From Naegleria gruberi (Eukaryota): a stretch of 64,000 nt of DNA. The notes beneath the pieces are model-generated. The model did not search any database and was not told the DNA's origin. It saw only the letters and a list, made by a program, of their open reading frames with translations. Within the stretch, counting starts at the first letter, position 1. Every line of letters begins with the position of its first letter. Made by a program: the position numbers and the translations under genes. This document shows, piece by piece, positions 1 to 23,389 of this stretch. The DNA lies in the NCBI GenBank assembly GCA_000004985.1, contig GG738863.1; one strand, given 5' to 3'.

Positions 1-210
1 TTATACAACAATTCAGACTTATTACTTGATTCAGAAGAGTTGGGAGATATCCAAATCGAAATTGAAAAGGTTGACGCTTTAAAAAGAAGAATATTTGGAG
101 AGGATGTAAACAAAATTAAGGATCACATATTTTTGATTATACTGCTATCCTTACTCGGTTTTAGATACACTGAGAGCAGGCAATCTATCACTTTTTTGAA
201 ACGAAAATAA
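1..210 (+). CDS. 3' end of an upstream gene (partial; C-terminal ...DHIFLIILLSLLGFRYTESRQSITFLKRK*); function unknown
   Basis: Open frame runs from the window edge to a TAA at 208-210 in frame 1. It has a hydrophobic C-terminal segment. It is not in the ORF track because it lacks a start in the window. Confidence 0.3.
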   Translation, partial: LYNNSDLLLDSEELGDIQIEIEKVDALKRRIFGEDVNKIKDHIFLIILLSLLGFRYTESRQSITFLKRK

Positions 211-257
211 TCTCACTTTATTTATCACATTGTTATCACTCAATCGAGAATGGCTAT

Positions 258-635
258 TTAACAATATCTATAACCGCCATATCCACCATAGTATGGAACA
301 CCATAACCATATCCTCCATAATATGGAACACCATAGCCATAACCACCATAATATGGAGCTGAATAAGCACTTCCGTAATTGGTGCCATAACTAGATGGAC
401 CAGTGTAATAAGATCCATAACTTGAATATGGTGAATAGTTGACTGCACTGATTTGATTGGAATAAGCTTGAGTATTTTGAGCATATTGATTGTAACTACC
501 ACCTGTTACTCCATAGTTTTGACCAGCACCACCATAAGAACCATAATTGTTTCCATAATTATTGCTGTATTGACAGTTGGCAAATGCAAGACACAATACG
601 AGGGCAATGAGACAGCTGCACAATGTTTTAATCAT
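258..635 (-). CDS. Secreted Gly/Tyr-rich low-complexity protein (signal peptide, then YGG/NYG repeats, C-terminal Cys); paralog A
   Basis: 125-aa ORF. The N-terminus MIKTLCSCLIALVLCLAFANC is signal-peptide-like, followed by QYSNNYGNNYG...YGGYGYGVPYYGGYGGYRYC. It is a near-identical paralog of 43871..44266. The overlapping ORF 254..502 is an alternative frame and was rejected. Confidence 0.6.
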   Translation of the reverse strand: MIKTLCSCLIALVLCLAFANCQYSNNYGNNYGSYGGAGQNYGVTGGSYNQYAQNTQAYSNQISAVNYSPYSSYGSYYTGPSSYGTNYGSAYSAPYYGGYGYGVPYYGGYGYGVPYYGGYGGYRYC

Positions 636-685
636 TTTTAGATGTTTTTGTTTTGATTTGTTGATAAAGTCTCAGATAATTGTTG

Positions 686-698
686 GGTATTTAAATGA
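686..698 (-). promoter_or_regulatory. Putative TATA element (gGTATTTAAATGaatttc) about 55 bp upstream of the Gly/Tyr-rich gene start
   Basis: The same 18-nt motif GGTATTTAAATGAATTTC is conserved upstream of paralog B (about 44305-44322), while the surrounding flanks have diverged. Confidence 0.4.
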
Positions 699-1132
699 AT
701 TTCCATATTGCATACCATATTTTGAGTTGGATTTGGAAAGTTTTTATTTTAGGAAATTCAACAGTTTTGAAAATCCACTTTTCTAAACTTGACGAATAAC
801 CATTTACATCTTTGCTGATTGAAATTGAGTGTCCAGTCAATATCAATTAAGATTTTTGAATAAACTCTTTGAAATAAGTACAAACGATGCTATGGGGAAA
901 CTGTAGTTAACATTCAGACCTTAGGTATAGAAGATTACAAAAAAAATTCATGATCCTATTCATGAATGCATTTCGAATTACCTTACAATCTTTTCAACTC
1001 AGAAACTAAAAGTTCATCAAGAGGAACAATATCAATACATGCTATTTCACACAAGTTTTTGAGGTTCTTTTTTATTGTTTTTCAAGAAGGCCCAAAAACA
1101 GACTCAAGCTTTAATTTTTCAAAAAGGAAAAA

Positions 1133-3442
1133 ATGTTGCCATCATCAGATAGTAACACATCAACAGCTACTACTGCGCAAAATGGTGTGAGTAGTGATGG
1201 TGATTGTTGTTATTATTCAAATAATGTTGGATCATTTGGAGAAATGTATTACCGATTGTTAAAAAGGTTTCGGGATGAAGAAATGGATGGCAAATATGAA
1301 AAGGATCATAACATTTTGATTACAGCTGATTCTTTATTGCATGCTTTTCATTATAGTTACAAATCGATATTGGAGTCTATTGAAGTGCAAATATTATTTC
1401 CAAAATGTAAACATTTATTTACCAAGTTATTTAAAAGTATGAAGGAAACTTTGATTAAACATAAATTTTCGGACTTTGCTAATCCTTCTCCTCACTCCCT
1501 GTTGAATGGATTTGAGTTGGAACCAAGACCTATTGGTCTTATAGAGCAAGGATTATATGATTTGGATTTTTTCATAACACTTTCCACATCTCTCATTCAT
1601 GGAAAGGTTGAGGATTCATATTTTATGCAGAATAGACATAATGTACATTATTTATTTGAATTAATTCATAGAAGATGCGAACTTGGAAATGATTTCAGTT
1701 CATCATGCTGTTTATTTACAATTTTCGGAGAGAAGAGGTTTTTGGAATTTAGACTCTATCAACCAAATTGGTTTTACATTAGGGATTACATGAATAATTA
1801 CTTTAAATTATTGAGTTGGTGTAATAATACATTTATGGACATTACAAACATTCAACAATTTACACTCATTTTGTTGGTGTGGCTTTTAGTTGAAGAATCT
1901 AAAACTCTTGGTTGTGAATATTCTCAAATTGAACATTGCTACAAGAATATGATTGGAATCTCAGATTCTGCCAATTGTGATGATATCACTACTACTTTGA
2001 GAGAATATTTCAATATGACTGAATCTGGTACGGAAAAGATTGCAGAAAAGCTTTACTACACTCTTACTCTTCCTGAAAATGAAAAGGCCATAAGAGAAAT
2101 TCAGCAATTTGTAATTAAGAAGAATATTGGGCTGAATCAAATTTCTAATGCCAATTTAAAATCACCAAAAGAAGGAGTTGGTCACAAGGATGAATTTACA
2201 TTTTGCTTTTTTGGAAGAAAGTTCACTTTGGATTCATTCATATTCCATAATGTTACATTTGACAGACTTAAAGATGAAGAAAATATGAGATATCTTCCTA
2301 GAGTTATTCCAACAATTTTAGATGTTGGATACACATTTTTAGATTCTCCTGTTGCTGAGGAAATTTTAAAGAACACTGATCCATATCATGACATTGTGCT
2401 TGACAAGTTGAATGAACTCAAAACCAGTATTAATGAGTACAATTCCCATCCAAGCATTCATAATATATGGCTTGATACTTTGAAAGGGTTATCGACTATT
2501 TCACCATTGTTCCAAAAGGTGGAAAAGTATACCGCCAAAGTGTTAATAACCCAATTTTCAAGCTTTTCTCATCTCAAATATGACTCTTCACTATTTGCAA
2601 AGCAGCACATTGAAACAGATATTGAGCTTATGGTAAATAAGGAAGTATTTGATATTGATACCGAAGCATCAGAATATGTGGATATTGGATTTCTTGTTGA
2701 GGGAAGCACCACTTTCTTCACAAAATTTGTTGCATTAGTAACTTTTGTCAGAGATTTACTTCAAAATGATGTTCAATTTAGCTCAATGCCCATCAGCTCA
2801 GAATCTGTGAAATTCTATAACAATTTCATCTCAACCCTGTCAGTGCTAGCTGAAATTAATAGGAAACAAACTGAGACTGGAGAAAAGTTGACTGAACAAG
2901 AAACGTCGTTTTTATCCAACATGATATTTGCAAAGAAGGATCCAAAACAATTCAAAACACAAACATTCAAACAAGTGTTGGGTACTACCTCTCAAAACTA
3001 TTCTGTCAGTGGCTGGTATCCTAACTTGTTTTTCAAAAGAGATGATGCAGGAAGATTCAAACCAATAGTGATTGACATTCACAGATATCCAGATGTTGAT
3101 AATGGTGTAATCTTGTGGGAGGCAGTTGGTCCCATTCATCTATTTGAAATGTCTCTAAAGGATAAAAAGTTCTTTGGACCAATGTTCTCTCAATTCGAAT
3201 TCATAACACCATACACCACCAAATTGAATAATGCAACATGGAAGAGTAAGCTCCAACACCCAAATCTTGAATATAACGAGTGGATGAAAATGTTGAGTAC
3301 TGAAATTTGTTTAGGAAAGAACTTTATTGGATACAGTCATTTGGATCACTTTACATGTGCTGAGTATACTACTGGCTCTCCACCTTCTTCAGGGTCTTCA
3401 TCCTCTCCAAACTCTCCCAGCACGCCCAATGTTGGTGAATAA
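1133..3442 (+). CDS. Hypothetical protein, 769 aa, no family recognised
   Basis: Long uninterrupted ORF with an ATG at 1133 in an A-rich context (aaaaaATG). Composition looks globular with no obvious motifs. Confidence 0.5.
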   Translation: MLPSSDSNTSTATTAQNGVSSDGDCCYYSNNVGSFGEMYYRLLKRFRDEEMDGKYEKDHNILITADSLLHAFHYSYKSILESIEVQILFPKCKHLFTKLFKSMKETLIKHKFSDFANPSPHSLLNGFELEPRPIGLIEQGLYDLDFFITLSTSLIHGKVEDSYFMQNRHNVHYLFELIHRRCELGNDFSSSCCLFTIFGEKRFLEFRLYQPNWFYIRDYMNNYFKLLSWCNNTFMDITNIQQFTLILLVWLLVEESKTLGCEYSQIEHCYKNMIGISDSANCDDITTTLREYFNMTESGTEKIAEKLYYTLTLPENEKAIREIQQFVIKKNIGLNQISNANLKSPKEGVGHKDEFTFCFFGRKFTLDSFIFHNVTFDRLKDEENMRYLPRVIPTILDVGYTFLDSPVAEEILKNTDPYHDIVLDKLNELKTSINEYNSHPSIHNIWLDTLKGLSTISPLFQKVEKYTAKVLITQFSSFSHLKYDSSLFAKQHIETDIELMVNKEVFDIDTEASEYVDIGFLVEGSTTFFTKFVALVTFVRDLLQNDVQFSSMPISSESVKFYNNFISTLSVLAEINRKQTETGEKLTEQETSFLSNMIFAKKDPKQFKTQTFKQVLGTTSQNYSVSGWYPNLFFKRDDAGRFKPIVIDIHRYPDVDNGVILWEAVGPIHLFEMSLKDKKFFGPMFSQFEFITPYTTKLNNATWKSKLQHPNLEYNEWMKMLSTEICLGKNFIGYSHLDHFTCAEYTTGSPPSSGSSSSPNSPSTPNVGE

Positions 3443-21864: not shown

Positions 21865-23079
21865 TTAATTCTTCTTTTCAATGTAATTGTCATGTTTCTT
21901 CTTATGTTCCTTCTTCTTGTGTTCCTTCTTTTCTGGAACATACTTGTCAACCTTAATTGGAGAACAAATCTTCTTCTTCTTTGAACAAACTGATTCTTCA
22001 CCATATTTGACACATTTCTTATGACCACCAACGAATTGATACTTGGCACAGACCTTATAACCAGGAGACTTCTTGACACACTTCTTCCAGTGCTTCTTCT
22101 TGATACATCTTGATTTGGTATGATGGTATTGAGTACAGAAGTTGACTGCCTTATAATTGGCACAGAATTTACGTTCCTTGAACTTTTCACAGACACGAAC
22201 TCTCTTCTTGAAATCACAGAATTGATTTTGACTCCACTTGGTACAGAAACGAGCCTTCTTTTGAGCAACACAGAACTTTCTATCAACGAATTTGACACAT
22301 CTCTTAGTGTAACCCTTCTTGAGACTGAATTTAACCTTATTGTATCTGACACACTTCTTAGTCTTGGTATATTTGGCACAAATCTTGTGACACTTTTGTT
22401 GACAGAAGGCATGATAATAAGTATCAGTCCATCCCTTGTAATGTTTACCGTTAACCTTCTTCCATCCCTTTTGGCATTTACAGACTTGCTTGTAGGCAGA
22501 ACAGTAAGCATCGAGCTTGTATTCAGCACATCTCTTCTTATAGTGATATCCGACCTTTGGAACATTGATGAATTTAGCACAGACATTTGACTTGTCATAC
22601 TTGGTACAAACGAAATGATAAGCATATTCATCACAAGCATTGTTCTTGCCCTTATGTTCACACAAATTCTTCCAGTTAGACTTGATACAATACTTTTCAG
22701 TCTTGTGCTTGTCACAAACTTGTTTGTAACCTGAAAAAAAGTTTACAAAAATTGTAAAATTTCAAATTAACTTACCATGACCCAAACACAACTTTCTAGC
22801 CTTGGAGTACTTGTCACACTTGCTGAATCTCTTGTATTGCAAACATTTGCCCTTACCAACCAACTTCCAGTCACAGCACTCTTTCTTGGTACCAATCCAT
22901 TCATAATCTGAACACTTTCCCTTGACTGTCTTGTAGTGAGTACACTTGTTGTAACAGAATTGTTGATGTTCTCCATAAGTATCAACATTCTTGGATGGTT
23001 CTGGTTTACTTGGATTTGCCAAGACCAAAGCAGCGAATGCAAGAGCAATGCACAAGCTTATAATGAATTTTGTTTTCAT
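21865..23079 (-). CDS. Secreted cysteine- and lysine-rich repeat protein (2 exons: about 22776..23079 and 21865..about 22729; 46-nt GTAAGT...TTTCAG intron)
   Basis: The ATG (minus) at about 23079 gives MKTKFIISLCIALAFAALVLA (signal peptide). The mature protein is about 400 aa with about 50 Cys and about 25% Lys. It has quasi-periodic units of about 10-12 residues, for example RKFCVAQKKARFCTKWSQNQFCDFKKRVRVCEKFKERKFCANYKAVNFC. The C-terminal tail is KKEHKKKEHKKKHDN. ORF 21813..22715 and ORF 22120..22590(+) are alternative or antisense frames. Confidence 0.6.
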
Positions 23080-23389
23080 TTTGTTTTTTTTGATATGGAT
23101 TATGATTGTGCAGTTGGCAATGAGTTTAAATAGTATTTGGATGAACAGCAAAGTCTTATTGCTGCTGAAGGTATCGGTTGAGTCAATGTCATTTCCTAAT
23201 TTATCCAATGCACATTTATCAAAATTCATTCTTTTAAAATTTGACTCTTTTTAATACTATTCTCAAAAGTGATTTGGTGCTTTGATTGAAACTTTACAAC
23301 TTTGATAACAAAATATAAAATGAATTTCACCAGAGGAAGAATGACAAGAACCGTTCTATTTAATTTATTAAATCAATTTTATAATGTAT

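What the first reader, a model, noticed from the sequence alone, without database searches (positions are those of the whole stretch)
258..700. Near-identical Gly/Tyr-rich secreted-protein genes 43.6 kb apart: mature region about 98% identical, signal peptides and flanks diverged, TATA element conserved
Copies at 258..635 and 43871..44266 are on the same strand. They share about 350 bp of the YGG/NYG-repeat coding region with only about 6 substitutions. By contrast the 5' about 60 bp encoding the signal peptides, and the UTRs, are largely different. The exceptions are an 18-nt GGTATTTAAATGAATTTC block about 45-55 bp upstream of each ATG and short 3' blocks (TCTCACTTTATTT, TATTTAACAATATCTATAACC).

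This pattern suggests a dispersed duplication with ongoing gene conversion confined to the repeat region, or very recent duplication with rapid signal-peptide change. The proteins resemble structural Gly/Tyr-rich wall, coat or eggshell-type proteins.
Basis: seen in the sequence. Interest (0 to 1): 0.55.

Follow-up and report, generated by a model that had tools for sequence, protein, structure and literature searches.

The report
Gene-converted Gly/Tyr-rich secreted-protein gene pair
Two unannotated genes 43.6 kb apart in the amoeba Naegleria gruberi encode almost the same small secreted glycine/tyrosine-rich protein because a 342-bp stretch was recently copied from one gene to the other; the case is clean but the mechanism is ordinary, and the protein family's function is unknown.

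Summary
The window is Naegleria gruberi. Both genes lie on the minus strand: CDS 258..635 and 43871..44248, each 125 aa. The second gene's end needed correcting.

A single 342-bp block (255-596 vs 43868-44209) is 98.2% identical and is the window's only long repeat. Divergence differs sharply between parts:
- The first 13 codons differ at 14 of 39 nt; the other 339 CDS nt differ at 6 (p=4e-11).
- Tract dS is 0.057, but dS is saturated in codons 1-13.
- The 200 bp upstream align at only about 75%, with indels. The 3' flank aligns only at an AATAAA block.
- Codon bias cannot explain the identity: 4 synonymous codon mismatches against about 45 expected.

The best explanation is an old dispersed duplication with recent ectopic gene conversion. 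The conversion covers the last 8 signal-peptide codons, the whole mature protein and the stop codon.

The proteins belong to a small family known only from Heterolobosea (N. lovaniensis, Willaertia magna, environmental contigs). It has no Pfam or PDB match and is predicted disordered. Its core is conserved under purifying selection. A wall or matrix role is inferred from composition only.

Verdict: new member of a known kind; modest interest.

The parts
258..635 (-). Copy 1 CDS: 125 aa plus stop, no intron. It encodes a signal peptide of about 21 aa and a 104-aa mature protein rich in Gly, Tyr, Ser, Asn and Gln.
   Evidence: Translation. It is the only ATG-started ORF in the frame that the homologues support. 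The exact protein is absent from the protein collection, which does hold the N. gruberi proteome.
43871..44248 (-). Copy 2 CDS: 125 aa plus stop. It is 92% identical to copy 1 at the protein level.
   Evidence: Translation. The extension to 44266 contains no ATG. tblastn with copy 1 finds only these two loci in the window.
255..596 (-). Homogenised (conversion) tract in copy 1: CDS nt 40-378 plus 3 nt beyond the stop codon. Internal differences lie at 538, 516, 496, 375, 312 and 276.
   Evidence: Self-blastn: 342 bp at 98.25%. Difference map. dS 0.057, dN 0.008.
43868..44209 (-). Homogenised (conversion) tract in copy 2.
597..635 (-). Diverged 5' end of the copy 1 CDS: codons 1-13 (MIKTLCSCLIALV).
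   Evidence: 14 of 39 nt differ from copy 2. Nine of the 13 codons differ, eight of them changing the amino acid. dN is 0.32 and dS is saturated.
44210..44248 (-). Diverged 5' end of the copy 2 CDS: codons 1-13 (MFKSVCCCVFVLI).
636..835 (-). Copy 1 5' UTR and promoter, homologous to copy 2 but diverged. Collinear conserved blocks: AAGTGGA (780-774), AATTTCC (758-752), CTTTCCAA (740-733) and GAAATTCATTTAAATACC (703-686), which contains the TATA-like TTTAAATA at 695-688.
   Evidence: Global alignment gives about 75% identity in aligned columns, with indels; z is 5-8 against shuffles, and there is no similarity beyond -200. Block positions. Exact 18-mer.
44249..44448 (-). Copy 2 5' UTR and promoter. 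The same blocks occur with the same spacing: AAGTGGA (44401-44395), AATTTCC (44379-44373), CTTTCCAA (44361-44354) and GAAATTCATTTAAATACC (44323-44306). A 9-bp tandem duplication (ATCAAAGTG twice) lies at 44255-44272.
211..223 (-). Conserved 3' block AAATAAAGTGAGA, 35 nt past the copy 1 stop codon. It contains AATAAA, and I infer it is the poly(A) signal.
   Evidence: Exact match at both loci. The rest of the 3' flank cannot be aligned.
43801..43813 (-). The same 3' block, 58 nt past the copy 2 stop codon.
277..357 (-). Internal 30-bp tandem repeat, 2.7 copies, encoding GVPYYGGYGY units in the C-terminal tail. The same repeat is present in copy 2.
   Evidence: Tandem Repeats Finder. Self-blastn off-diagonal hits.

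Best explanation
The window is Naegleria gruberi nuclear DNA. It carries two intronless paralogous genes, in direct orientation and 43.6 kb apart, that are missing from the reference annotation. Each encodes a 125-aa precursor: a hydrophobic signal peptide of about 21 aa, then a 104-aa mature protein. The mature protein is almost uncharged and is predicted disordered. It is 28% Tyr and 23% Gly; Gly, Tyr, Ser, Asn and Gln together make 79%. It has one Arg and a single C-terminal Cys.

Both genes belong to a small family known only from Heterolobosea. The family has a conserved core (GG-N-Y/F-N-x-Y-A-Q-N-T-Q-A-Y-S/N-N-Q-x-x-A-x-N-Y-x-P-Y/F) followed by a variable Gly/aromatic tail.

The duplication unit runs from about -200 to about +60 past the stop codon. 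It is old: neutral flanks are randomised apart from promoter blocks and the AATAAA block. A recent non-reciprocal recombination event, ectopic (non-allelic) gene conversion, then copied a tract of at most 342 bp from one gene into the other. The tract spans the last 8 signal-peptide codons, the whole mature region and the stop codon. Six substitutions have accumulated since.

Shown: the ORFs, their paralogy, the uneven divergence, the homogenised synonymous sites, purifying selection across the family, and the absence of a fold or a known domain.

Inferred: secretion; the recombination mechanism (double-strand-break repair using the paralogue as template); co-regulation through the conserved TATA and upstream blocks; and a role as a self-assembling, possibly Tyr-cross-linked, extracellular matrix component such as cyst wall. 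I put the cyst-wall or matrix role at only about 0.3. The confidence given here refers to the genetic explanation.
For: Organism:
- Neighbouring ORFs are exact matches to N. gruberi XP_002678107.1 and XP_002678112.1.

Tract:
- It is 342 bp at 98.25% identity and is the only long repeat in the window.
- CDS differences: 14 in the first 39 nt against 6 in the remaining 339, Fisher p=3.6e-11.
- Tract against the alignable promoter: 6/342 against 41/167, p=6e-16.
- NG86 estimates: tract dS 0.057 and dN 0.008; codons 1-13 dN 0.32 with dS saturated.
- Codon choice inside the tract is mixed (Gly: GGT 14, GGA 7, GGC 3; Tyr: TAT 24, TAC 5) yet matches position by position. There are 4 synonymous codon mismatches against about 45 expected from independent draws.
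- Synonymous sites are free to change in this family: dS is 1-3 and dN/dS 0.15-0.35 between members, and another nearby paralogue pair (L006) has dS 1.8.

Flanks:
- The region -1..-200 aligns at about 75% with indels (z 5-8). Nothing aligns beyond -200. In the 3' flank only the AATAAA block aligns.
- The promoter blocks are collinear with conserved spacing.

Family:
- Members were found in N. lovaniensis, Willaertia magna and environmental contigs.
- There is no Pfam hit and no significant PDB hit.
- The AF2 model has mean pLDDT 45, and only the signal-peptide helix is confident.
- Composition of the mature protein.

Precedent: N. gruberi flagellar alpha-tubulin genes are about eight dispersed, exceptionally similar but non-identical copies (PMC2115128 abstract).
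Against: - Only two sequences are available and no close outgroup. The classical phylogenetic test, in which tract and flanks give different trees, could not be run.
- The rest of the N. gruberi genome could not be searched, so a third copy acting as donor cannot be excluded.
- None of the N. lovaniensis loci is syntenic with the window, so the age of the duplication is not independently dated.
- No expression data were available, and the genes are unannotated.
- The functional reading rests on composition alone. I found no literature on Naegleria wall proteins.
- No N. fowleri homologue was found among annotated proteins.
Confidence: 0.78

Rival explanations
1. A very recent duplication of the whole unit, followed by unusually fast change of the signal peptide and flanks.
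For: Signal peptides tolerate many substitutions. Eight of the first 13 residues differ while the mature part differs at only 2 of 104.
Against: The non-coding flanks should then be no more diverged than synonymous sites in the tract (dS 0.057). Instead the promoter shows about 25% mismatches plus indels, and the 3' UTR and everything beyond -200 cannot be aligned. dS in codons 1-13 is saturated.
Confidence: 0.04
2. Sequence-level selection, such as codon bias, mRNA structure or an overlapping element, keeps the two old copies identical without any recombination.
For: The gene is compositionally biased. The core QNTQAY segment shows some nucleotide conservation even across genera.
Against: Codon choice is mixed yet matches position by position: 4 mismatches against about 45 expected. 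Family members elsewhere have dS of 1-3. The boundaries are sharp and do not coincide with the signal-peptide/mature junction. No Rfam family matches the region, and no other frame carries a supported ORF.
Confidence: 0.05
3. Assembly artefact: one gene, or two alleles, represented twice, or a chimeric join.
For: N. lovaniensis has one family member encoded identically on two contigs, inside an 8.8-kb block that is 94-98.5% identical. That block could be a haplotig.
Against: In this window the two copies sit on one gap-free stretch 43.6 kb apart (no Ns). Their flanks are entirely different and unique. They differ at 6 sites inside the tract. Their promoters are homologous but diverged, which a mis-join would not produce.
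Confidence: 0.03
4. Same genetics, different function: the products are secreted defence or antimicrobial peptides, or adhesives, rather than wall or matrix structural proteins.
For: Small secreted Gly/Tyr-rich products of rapidly duplicating genes also occur as C. elegans NLP/CNC antimicrobial peptides and as marine adhesive proteins (my own knowledge). The family is multi-copy and locally dispersed in three species.
Against: The mature protein has one basic residue and no dibasic processing sites, so it is not cationic. Relatives carry long Gly/Ala/Phe elastomer-like tails, as in P0016 and P0018, and one carries two cores in a single 449-aa protein (P0011). Both features look structural. No direct evidence favours either function.
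Confidence: 0.25

Closest known systems
Interlocus (ectopic) gene conversion between dispersed paralogues, e.g. silkmoth chorion gene families and primate globin genes (my own knowledge); dispersed near-identical N. gruberi alpha-tubulin genes (PMC2115128)
   Same: A short coding tract is homogenised, synonymous sites included. The flanks keep an older, much larger divergence. The boundaries are sharp. The paralogues lie on the same chromosome in direct orientation.
   Different: There are only two copies here. No outgroup is available to show tree incongruence. The donor and the direction of transfer are unknown. The tract of at most 342 bp ends inside the signal peptide and 3 nt past the stop codon.
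Shematrins (pearl-oyster shell framework proteins); UniRef labels the N. lovaniensis homologue 'Shematrin-like protein 1'
   Same: Secreted Gly/Tyr-rich low-complexity proteins that form a multigene family.
   Different: No sequence homology was detected: there is no Pfam hit, and the whole-library searches returned only heterolobosean-type proteins. The label looks compositional. The conserved QNTQAYSNQ core is not, to my knowledge, a shematrin feature.
High-glycine/tyrosine keratin-associated proteins and insect chorion or cuticle Gly/Tyr-rich proteins
   Same: Small size, 35-60% Gly plus Tyr, terminal Cys, a matrix-forming role, and multigene families that evolve in concert (my own knowledge).
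   Different: These are animal families with no detectable homology here. The Naegleria proteins have a conserved Asn/Gln-rich core and a single Cys.
C. elegans NLP-27..31 / CNC (YGGYG) antimicrobial peptides
   Same: A signal peptide followed by Gly/Tyr repeats; clustered, rapidly duplicating genes.
   Different: Those peptides are cationic and are processed at basic sites. This mature protein has one Arg and no Lys.
Tyrosine-rich oocyst and cyst wall proteins cross-linked by dityrosine (e.g. Eimeria GAM56/GAM82)
   Same: Tyr-rich secreted precursors of a resistant wall in a protist. This is the model behind my functional guess.
   Different: No homology, and no evidence here for cross-linking, stage-specific expression or wall localisation.

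Membership tests
Ectopic gene conversion tract | A tract whose identity is far higher than that of the homologous flanks | tested here: met
   6/342 differences in the tract, against 14/39 in the 5' CDS and 41/167 in the promoter; p=3.6e-11 and 6e-16.
Ectopic gene conversion tract | Synonymous sites are homogenised, so protein-level selection cannot explain the identity | tested here: met
   Tract dS is 0.057 against saturated dS in codons 1-13. There are 4 synonymous codon mismatches against about 45 expected. Family dS is 1-3.
Ectopic gene conversion tract | Phylogenetic incongruence: the tract groups paralogues within a species while the flanks group orthologues | not testable with these tools
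   No close relative's genome was available, and no syntenic locus was found in N. lovaniensis.
Ectopic gene conversion tract | Both copies are real and separately located, not an assembly duplicate | tested here: inconclusive
   Unique flanks, no Ns and 6 internal differences argue for two real loci. Read depth and long reads could not be checked.
Secreted protein (classical signal peptide) | An N-terminal basic residue, a hydrophobic core, and small residues at -3 and -1 | tested here: met
   The N-terminus reads M-x-K followed by a 15-residue core with mean Kyte-Doolittle hydropathy of 2.7-3.0, then A-x-C|Q. AF2 predicts a helix at residues 2-24. All homologues have the same layout once their true ATGs are restored. 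No dedicated predictor was run.
Heterolobosean Gly/Tyr-rich core family (unnamed) | The conserved core GG-N-[YF]-N-x-Y-x-Q-N-T-x-A-Y-[SN]-N-Q-x-x-A-x-N-Y-x-P-[YF] placed after a signal peptide | tested here: met
   Invariant columns across 13 sequences. Profile search hits reach E=1e-40 and come only from Naegleria, Willaertia or environmental eukaryotic contigs.
Shematrin / chorion / KRTAP / plant GRP families | Detectable sequence homology, i.e. a Pfam or profile match | tested here: not met
   No Pfam family matched at E up to 10 for either N. gruberi copy or for three homologues. The best PDB hit has E=0.15.
Cationic YGGYG antimicrobial peptides (NLP/CNC type) | Net positive charge and basic processing sites | tested here: not met
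   One Arg, no Lys or His, and no dibasic sites in the 104-aa mature protein.
Cyst-wall structural protein | Induced at encystment and located in the wall | not testable with these tools
   No expression or proteomic data were accessible. The literature searches found no Naegleria wall-protein study.

The most novel reading that the evidence does not exclude
These unannotated genes may define a Heterolobosea-specific family of secreted, uncharged proteins with a prion-like Tyr/Gly/Asn/Gln composition. On this reading, the conserved Q/N/Y core drives self-assembly (amyloid-like or dityrosine-cross-linked) into the cyst wall or another extracellular matrix, and gene conversion keeps co-assembling subunits identical. 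That would supply the first molecular components of the Naegleria/Willaertia wall.
Probability: 0.25. Interest if true: 0.5.

Novelty: new member of a known kind. Interest (0 to 1): 0.3.

Why it matters
- The pair is a compact textbook example of ectopic gene conversion in a heterolobosean: a tract of at most 342 bp with sharp boundaries and diverged but still recognisable promoters.
- Two real genes are missing from the N. gruberi reference annotation.
- The proteins belong to an uncharacterised lineage-restricted family of secreted low-complexity proteins. I found no published identification of Naegleria cyst-wall proteins, so the family is a cheap candidate to test by RNA-seq and wall proteomics.
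- The conserved promoter blocks give candidate cis-elements in an organism whose promoters are poorly described.
- None of this overturns current understanding.

Tried and rejected
- **Metagenome contig scans.** A search with the family alignment matched 60 pattern stretches, but none was confirmed. A degenerate DNA pattern for YAQNTQAYSNQ gave one hit, which is a chance match outside any ORF.
- **N. gruberi gene calls around the loci.** Fetching them through neighbouring proteins failed because the genes are not on record. I therefore could not count family members across the genome.
- **Synteny.** I compared the window with every fetched homologue locus: N. lovaniensis L004, L010, L011 and L012; environmental L001, L003 and L006; and L007 from a Logan assembly. 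Only the gene itself matches.
- **Structure.** The AF2 model has pLDDT 45, so no fold search was warranted.
- **Domain and structure databases.** Pfam and PDB sequence searches found nothing. Rfam found only two tRNAs elsewhere in the window.
- **Literature.** Searches for Naegleria cyst-wall, glycine-rich, tyrosine or dityrosine proteins found nothing relevant.
- **Bacterial promoter/terminator scan.** It does not apply to a eukaryote.
- **Conversion elsewhere in the family.** The W. magna pair (30.9 kb apart, same strand) is 81% identical with no sharp tract. The L006 pair has dS 1.8. Conversion is therefore not a general feature of the family.

Full report
**Identity of the window.** Two long ORFs in the window (37860-39539 and 50468-51913) are exact matches to Naegleria gruberi proteins XP_002678107.1 and XP_002678112.1, which lie on a 467,654-bp contig. 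The window is about 34% GC and is densely packed with long, mostly intron-free ORFs. The finding therefore concerns nuclear DNA of a heterolobosean amoeboflagellate.

**The observation.** Both genes read on the minus strand.
- Copy 1 is CDS 258..635 (125 codons plus TAA).
- Copy 2 is CDS 43871..44248. That end is only the GTG-started ORF given by the bacterial code.
- A self-BLAST of the whole window finds a single long repeat: 255-596 vs 43868-44209, 342 bp, 98.25% identical. The only other hits are off-diagonal matches of a 30-bp internal tandem repeat.
- tblastn with copy 1 finds no third family member in the window.
- The window has no Ns.

**Pattern of divergence.** Within the 378-nt CDS there are 20 differences. 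Fourteen fall in the first 39 nt and six in the remaining 339 (Fisher p=3.6e-11).
- The six tract differences lie at window positions 538, 516, 496, 375, 312 and 276. Four are synonymous and two are replacements (S33Y, S47N).
- The tract begins at codon 14, inside the signal peptide, and ends 3 nt after the stop codon.
- NG86 estimates give dS=0.057 and dN=0.008 in the tract. In codons 1-13, dN=0.32 and dS is too saturated to compute.
- Upstream, the first 200 nt still align at about 75% identity in aligned columns, with several indels (z=5-8 against shuffles). Beyond -200 there is no similarity. Downstream only a 13-nt block aligns.
- Tract against alignable promoter is 6/342 against 41/167 differences (p=6e-16).

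**Codon bias does not explain the identity.** Codon use inside the tract is mixed (Gly: GGT 14, GGA 7, GGC 3; Tyr: TAT 24, TAC 5; Ser uses five codons). Even so, the same codon is used at the same position in both copies. If codons were drawn independently from the gene's own usage, about 45 of the 110 same-residue codons should differ; only 4 do. Synonymous sites are also free to change in this family. Between members from other organisms dS is 1-3 and dN/dS is 0.15-0.35. Two paralogues 2.4 kb apart on an environmental contig (L006) have dS 1.8.

**Conserved non-coding blocks.**
- The 18-mer GAAATTCATTTAAATACC is exact at 686-703 and 44306-44323. About 0.25 matches are expected by chance even when 3 mismatches are allowed. 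It contains a TATA-like TTTAAATA at -60 in copy 1 and -67 in copy 2.
- Three further blocks (AAGTGGA, AATTTCC, CTTTCCAA) lie upstream in the same order and with the same spacing in both copies.
- Nearly all homologues from other organisms also have a TATA(A/T)A element 33-87 nt upstream of their true ATG; L007 is the exception.
- The 3' block AAATAAAGTGAGA (211-223 and 43801-43813) contains AATAAA. It lies 35 nt past the stop codon in copy 1 and 58 nt past it in copy 2. I infer that it is the poly(A) signal.
- Together these blocks indicate that the original duplicated unit was a whole gene, from about -200 to about +60, and that both copies keep the same regulatory architecture.

**The proteins.**
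- Each precursor has an M-x-K start, a 15-residue hydrophobic core and an A-N-C|Q cleavage-type site.
- AF2 predicts only an N-terminal helix (residues 2-24). It gives pLDDT below 50 for everything after residue 21.
- The 104-aa mature protein is 28% Tyr and 23% Gly. Gly, Tyr, Ser, Asn and Gln together make 79%. It has one charged residue (Arg) and one Cys, at the C-terminus.
- No Pfam family matches at E up to 10. The best PDB sequence match has E=0.15.

**The family.**
- Three searches of very large protein collections returned only a handful of relatives.
- N. lovaniensis has three distinct proteins: C9374_006701, C9374_009743 and C9374_003234. UniRef names the first 'Shematrin-like protein 1'.
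- Willaertia magna has ABK040_015033, ABK040_015046 and ABK040_001469. The last carries two copies of the core in a 449-aa protein.
- Several further proteins come from ENA, JGI and Logan contigs that carry eukaryotic-type neighbouring genes.
- After restoring the true ATGs, all members have signal peptides.
- A core of about 35 residues (GG-N-Y/F-N-x-Y-A-Q-N-T-Q-A-Y-S/N-N-Q-x-x-A-x-N-Y-x-P-Y/F) is nearly invariant. The C-terminal Gly/aromatic tail varies widely in length and repeat type.
- Neither N. gruberi protein is in the collection, either by exact look-up or as a close hit, although the N. gruberi proteome is there. Both genes therefore appear to be unannotated.
- No N. fowleri homologue was found among annotated proteins.

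**Arrangement in other genomes.**
- The family tends to occur as locally dispersed copies in the same orientation. In W. magna two members lie 30.9 kb apart on one strand. On contig L006 two members are separated by a zf-MYND gene.
- Those pairs are ordinary diverged paralogues. The W. magna pair is 81% identical with no sharp tract, and the L006 pair has dS 1.8.
- In N. lovaniensis one member is encoded identically on two contigs, but inside an 8.8-kb block that is 94-98.5% identical including its flanks. That is a plain segmental duplication or haplotig. It contrasts with the N. gruberi pair, where identity is confined to 342 bp.
- No homologue locus is syntenic with the window, so I could not date the N. 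gruberi duplication independently.

**Explanation.** The data fit an old dispersed duplication of a complete small gene. A recent ectopic gene conversion, or an equivalent non-reciprocal repair event, then replaced at most 342 bp of one copy with the other's sequence, and six substitutions have accumulated since.
- Rapid signal-peptide evolution after a recent duplication is rejected by the diverged non-coding flanks.
- Sequence-level selection is rejected by the codon test and by the family's dS values.
- An assembly artefact is unlikely, because each locus has unique flanks and a homologous but diverged promoter. Read-level confirmation was not possible.

**Function.** The function is inferred, not shown. 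The evidence is a signal peptide, near-absence of charge, 51% Gly plus Tyr, a conserved Asn/Gln/Tyr core and, in relatives, long elastomer-like Gly/Ala/Phe tails. These features point to a self-assembling extracellular matrix component. For cyst-forming amoebae the cyst wall is the obvious candidate, with Tyr cross-linking and C-terminal Cys disulfides as plausible chemistry. I put this at about 0.3. A defence or adhesive role is not excluded, although the protein is not cationic. Literature searches found no study identifying Naegleria wall proteins.

**Verdict.** The modest added value lies in two unannotated genes, an uncharacterised lineage-specific protein family, and candidate promoter elements.

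Noticed in passing
window 51935-52007 (-) and 54085-54157 (-): Two tRNA genes, tRNA-Ile(AAT) and tRNA-Ala(TGC). The tRNA-Ile region is the only sequence apart from the family gene itself that matches the N. lovaniensis locus L004 (2607-2693).
   Followed up: partly
window 21865-22665 (-) and 22762-23229 (-): Two adjacent ORFs encode Lys/Cys-rich proteins. One has an internal signal-peptide-like segment (MKTKFIISLCIALAFAALVLA...). Neither has a Pfam match. They may be another lineage-specific secreted family.
   Followed up: partly
window 702-695, 44322-44315, 44462-44455 (- strand); L004 about -104 and L010 about -114 from the ATG: The octamer AAATTCAT recurs upstream of family genes in N. gruberi (once in copy 1, twice in copy 2) and in two N. 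lovaniensis paralogues, where it sits inside a shared 28-nt block AACAGTGAATTTCCAAATTCATC. Its background frequency in the window is 0.16 per kb per strand. It is a candidate family-specific cis-element.
   Followed up: partly
window 44255-44272 (-): A 9-bp tandem duplication (ATCAAAGTG twice) lies in the copy 2 5' UTR, just upstream of the ATG.
   Followed up: yes
L011 7203-16024 vs L012 7206-16020 (N. lovaniensis PYSW02000049.1 / PYSW02000018.1): An 8.8-kb block that is 94-98.5% identical sits on two contigs, and each copy carries an identical family member (C9374_003234). It is either a segmental duplication or an uncollapsed haplotype.
   Followed up: partly
L010 11798-13285 (-) (N. lovaniensis PYSW02000003.1): A gene with HTH_OrfB_IS605, OrfB_IS605 and Cas12f1-like TNB domains lies 1.4 kb downstream of family member C9374_009743. 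It is a TnpB/Fanzor-type gene in a eukaryote; such genes are, to my knowledge, already described in N. lovaniensis.
   Followed up: no
L008 3001-3456 and L009 3001-3780 (Willaertia magna JBEGDK010000077.1, 59120-59575 and 90046-90825): Two family paralogues lie 30.9 kb apart on the same strand and are 81% identical over the first 330 bp. A patch of about 70 nt in the QNTQAY core is nearly identical. One copy has a Gly/Phe/Pro-rich tail about 100 aa longer.
   Followed up: partly
window 1133-3442 (+) and 44735-45205 (+): Each family gene is transcribed divergently from an unrelated neighbour whose ATG lies about 490-500 bp away. The neighbours are a DUF3160 protein and a small multi-pass membrane protein. 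The similar spacing looks coincidental, because the shared sequence ends at about -200.
   Followed up: partly
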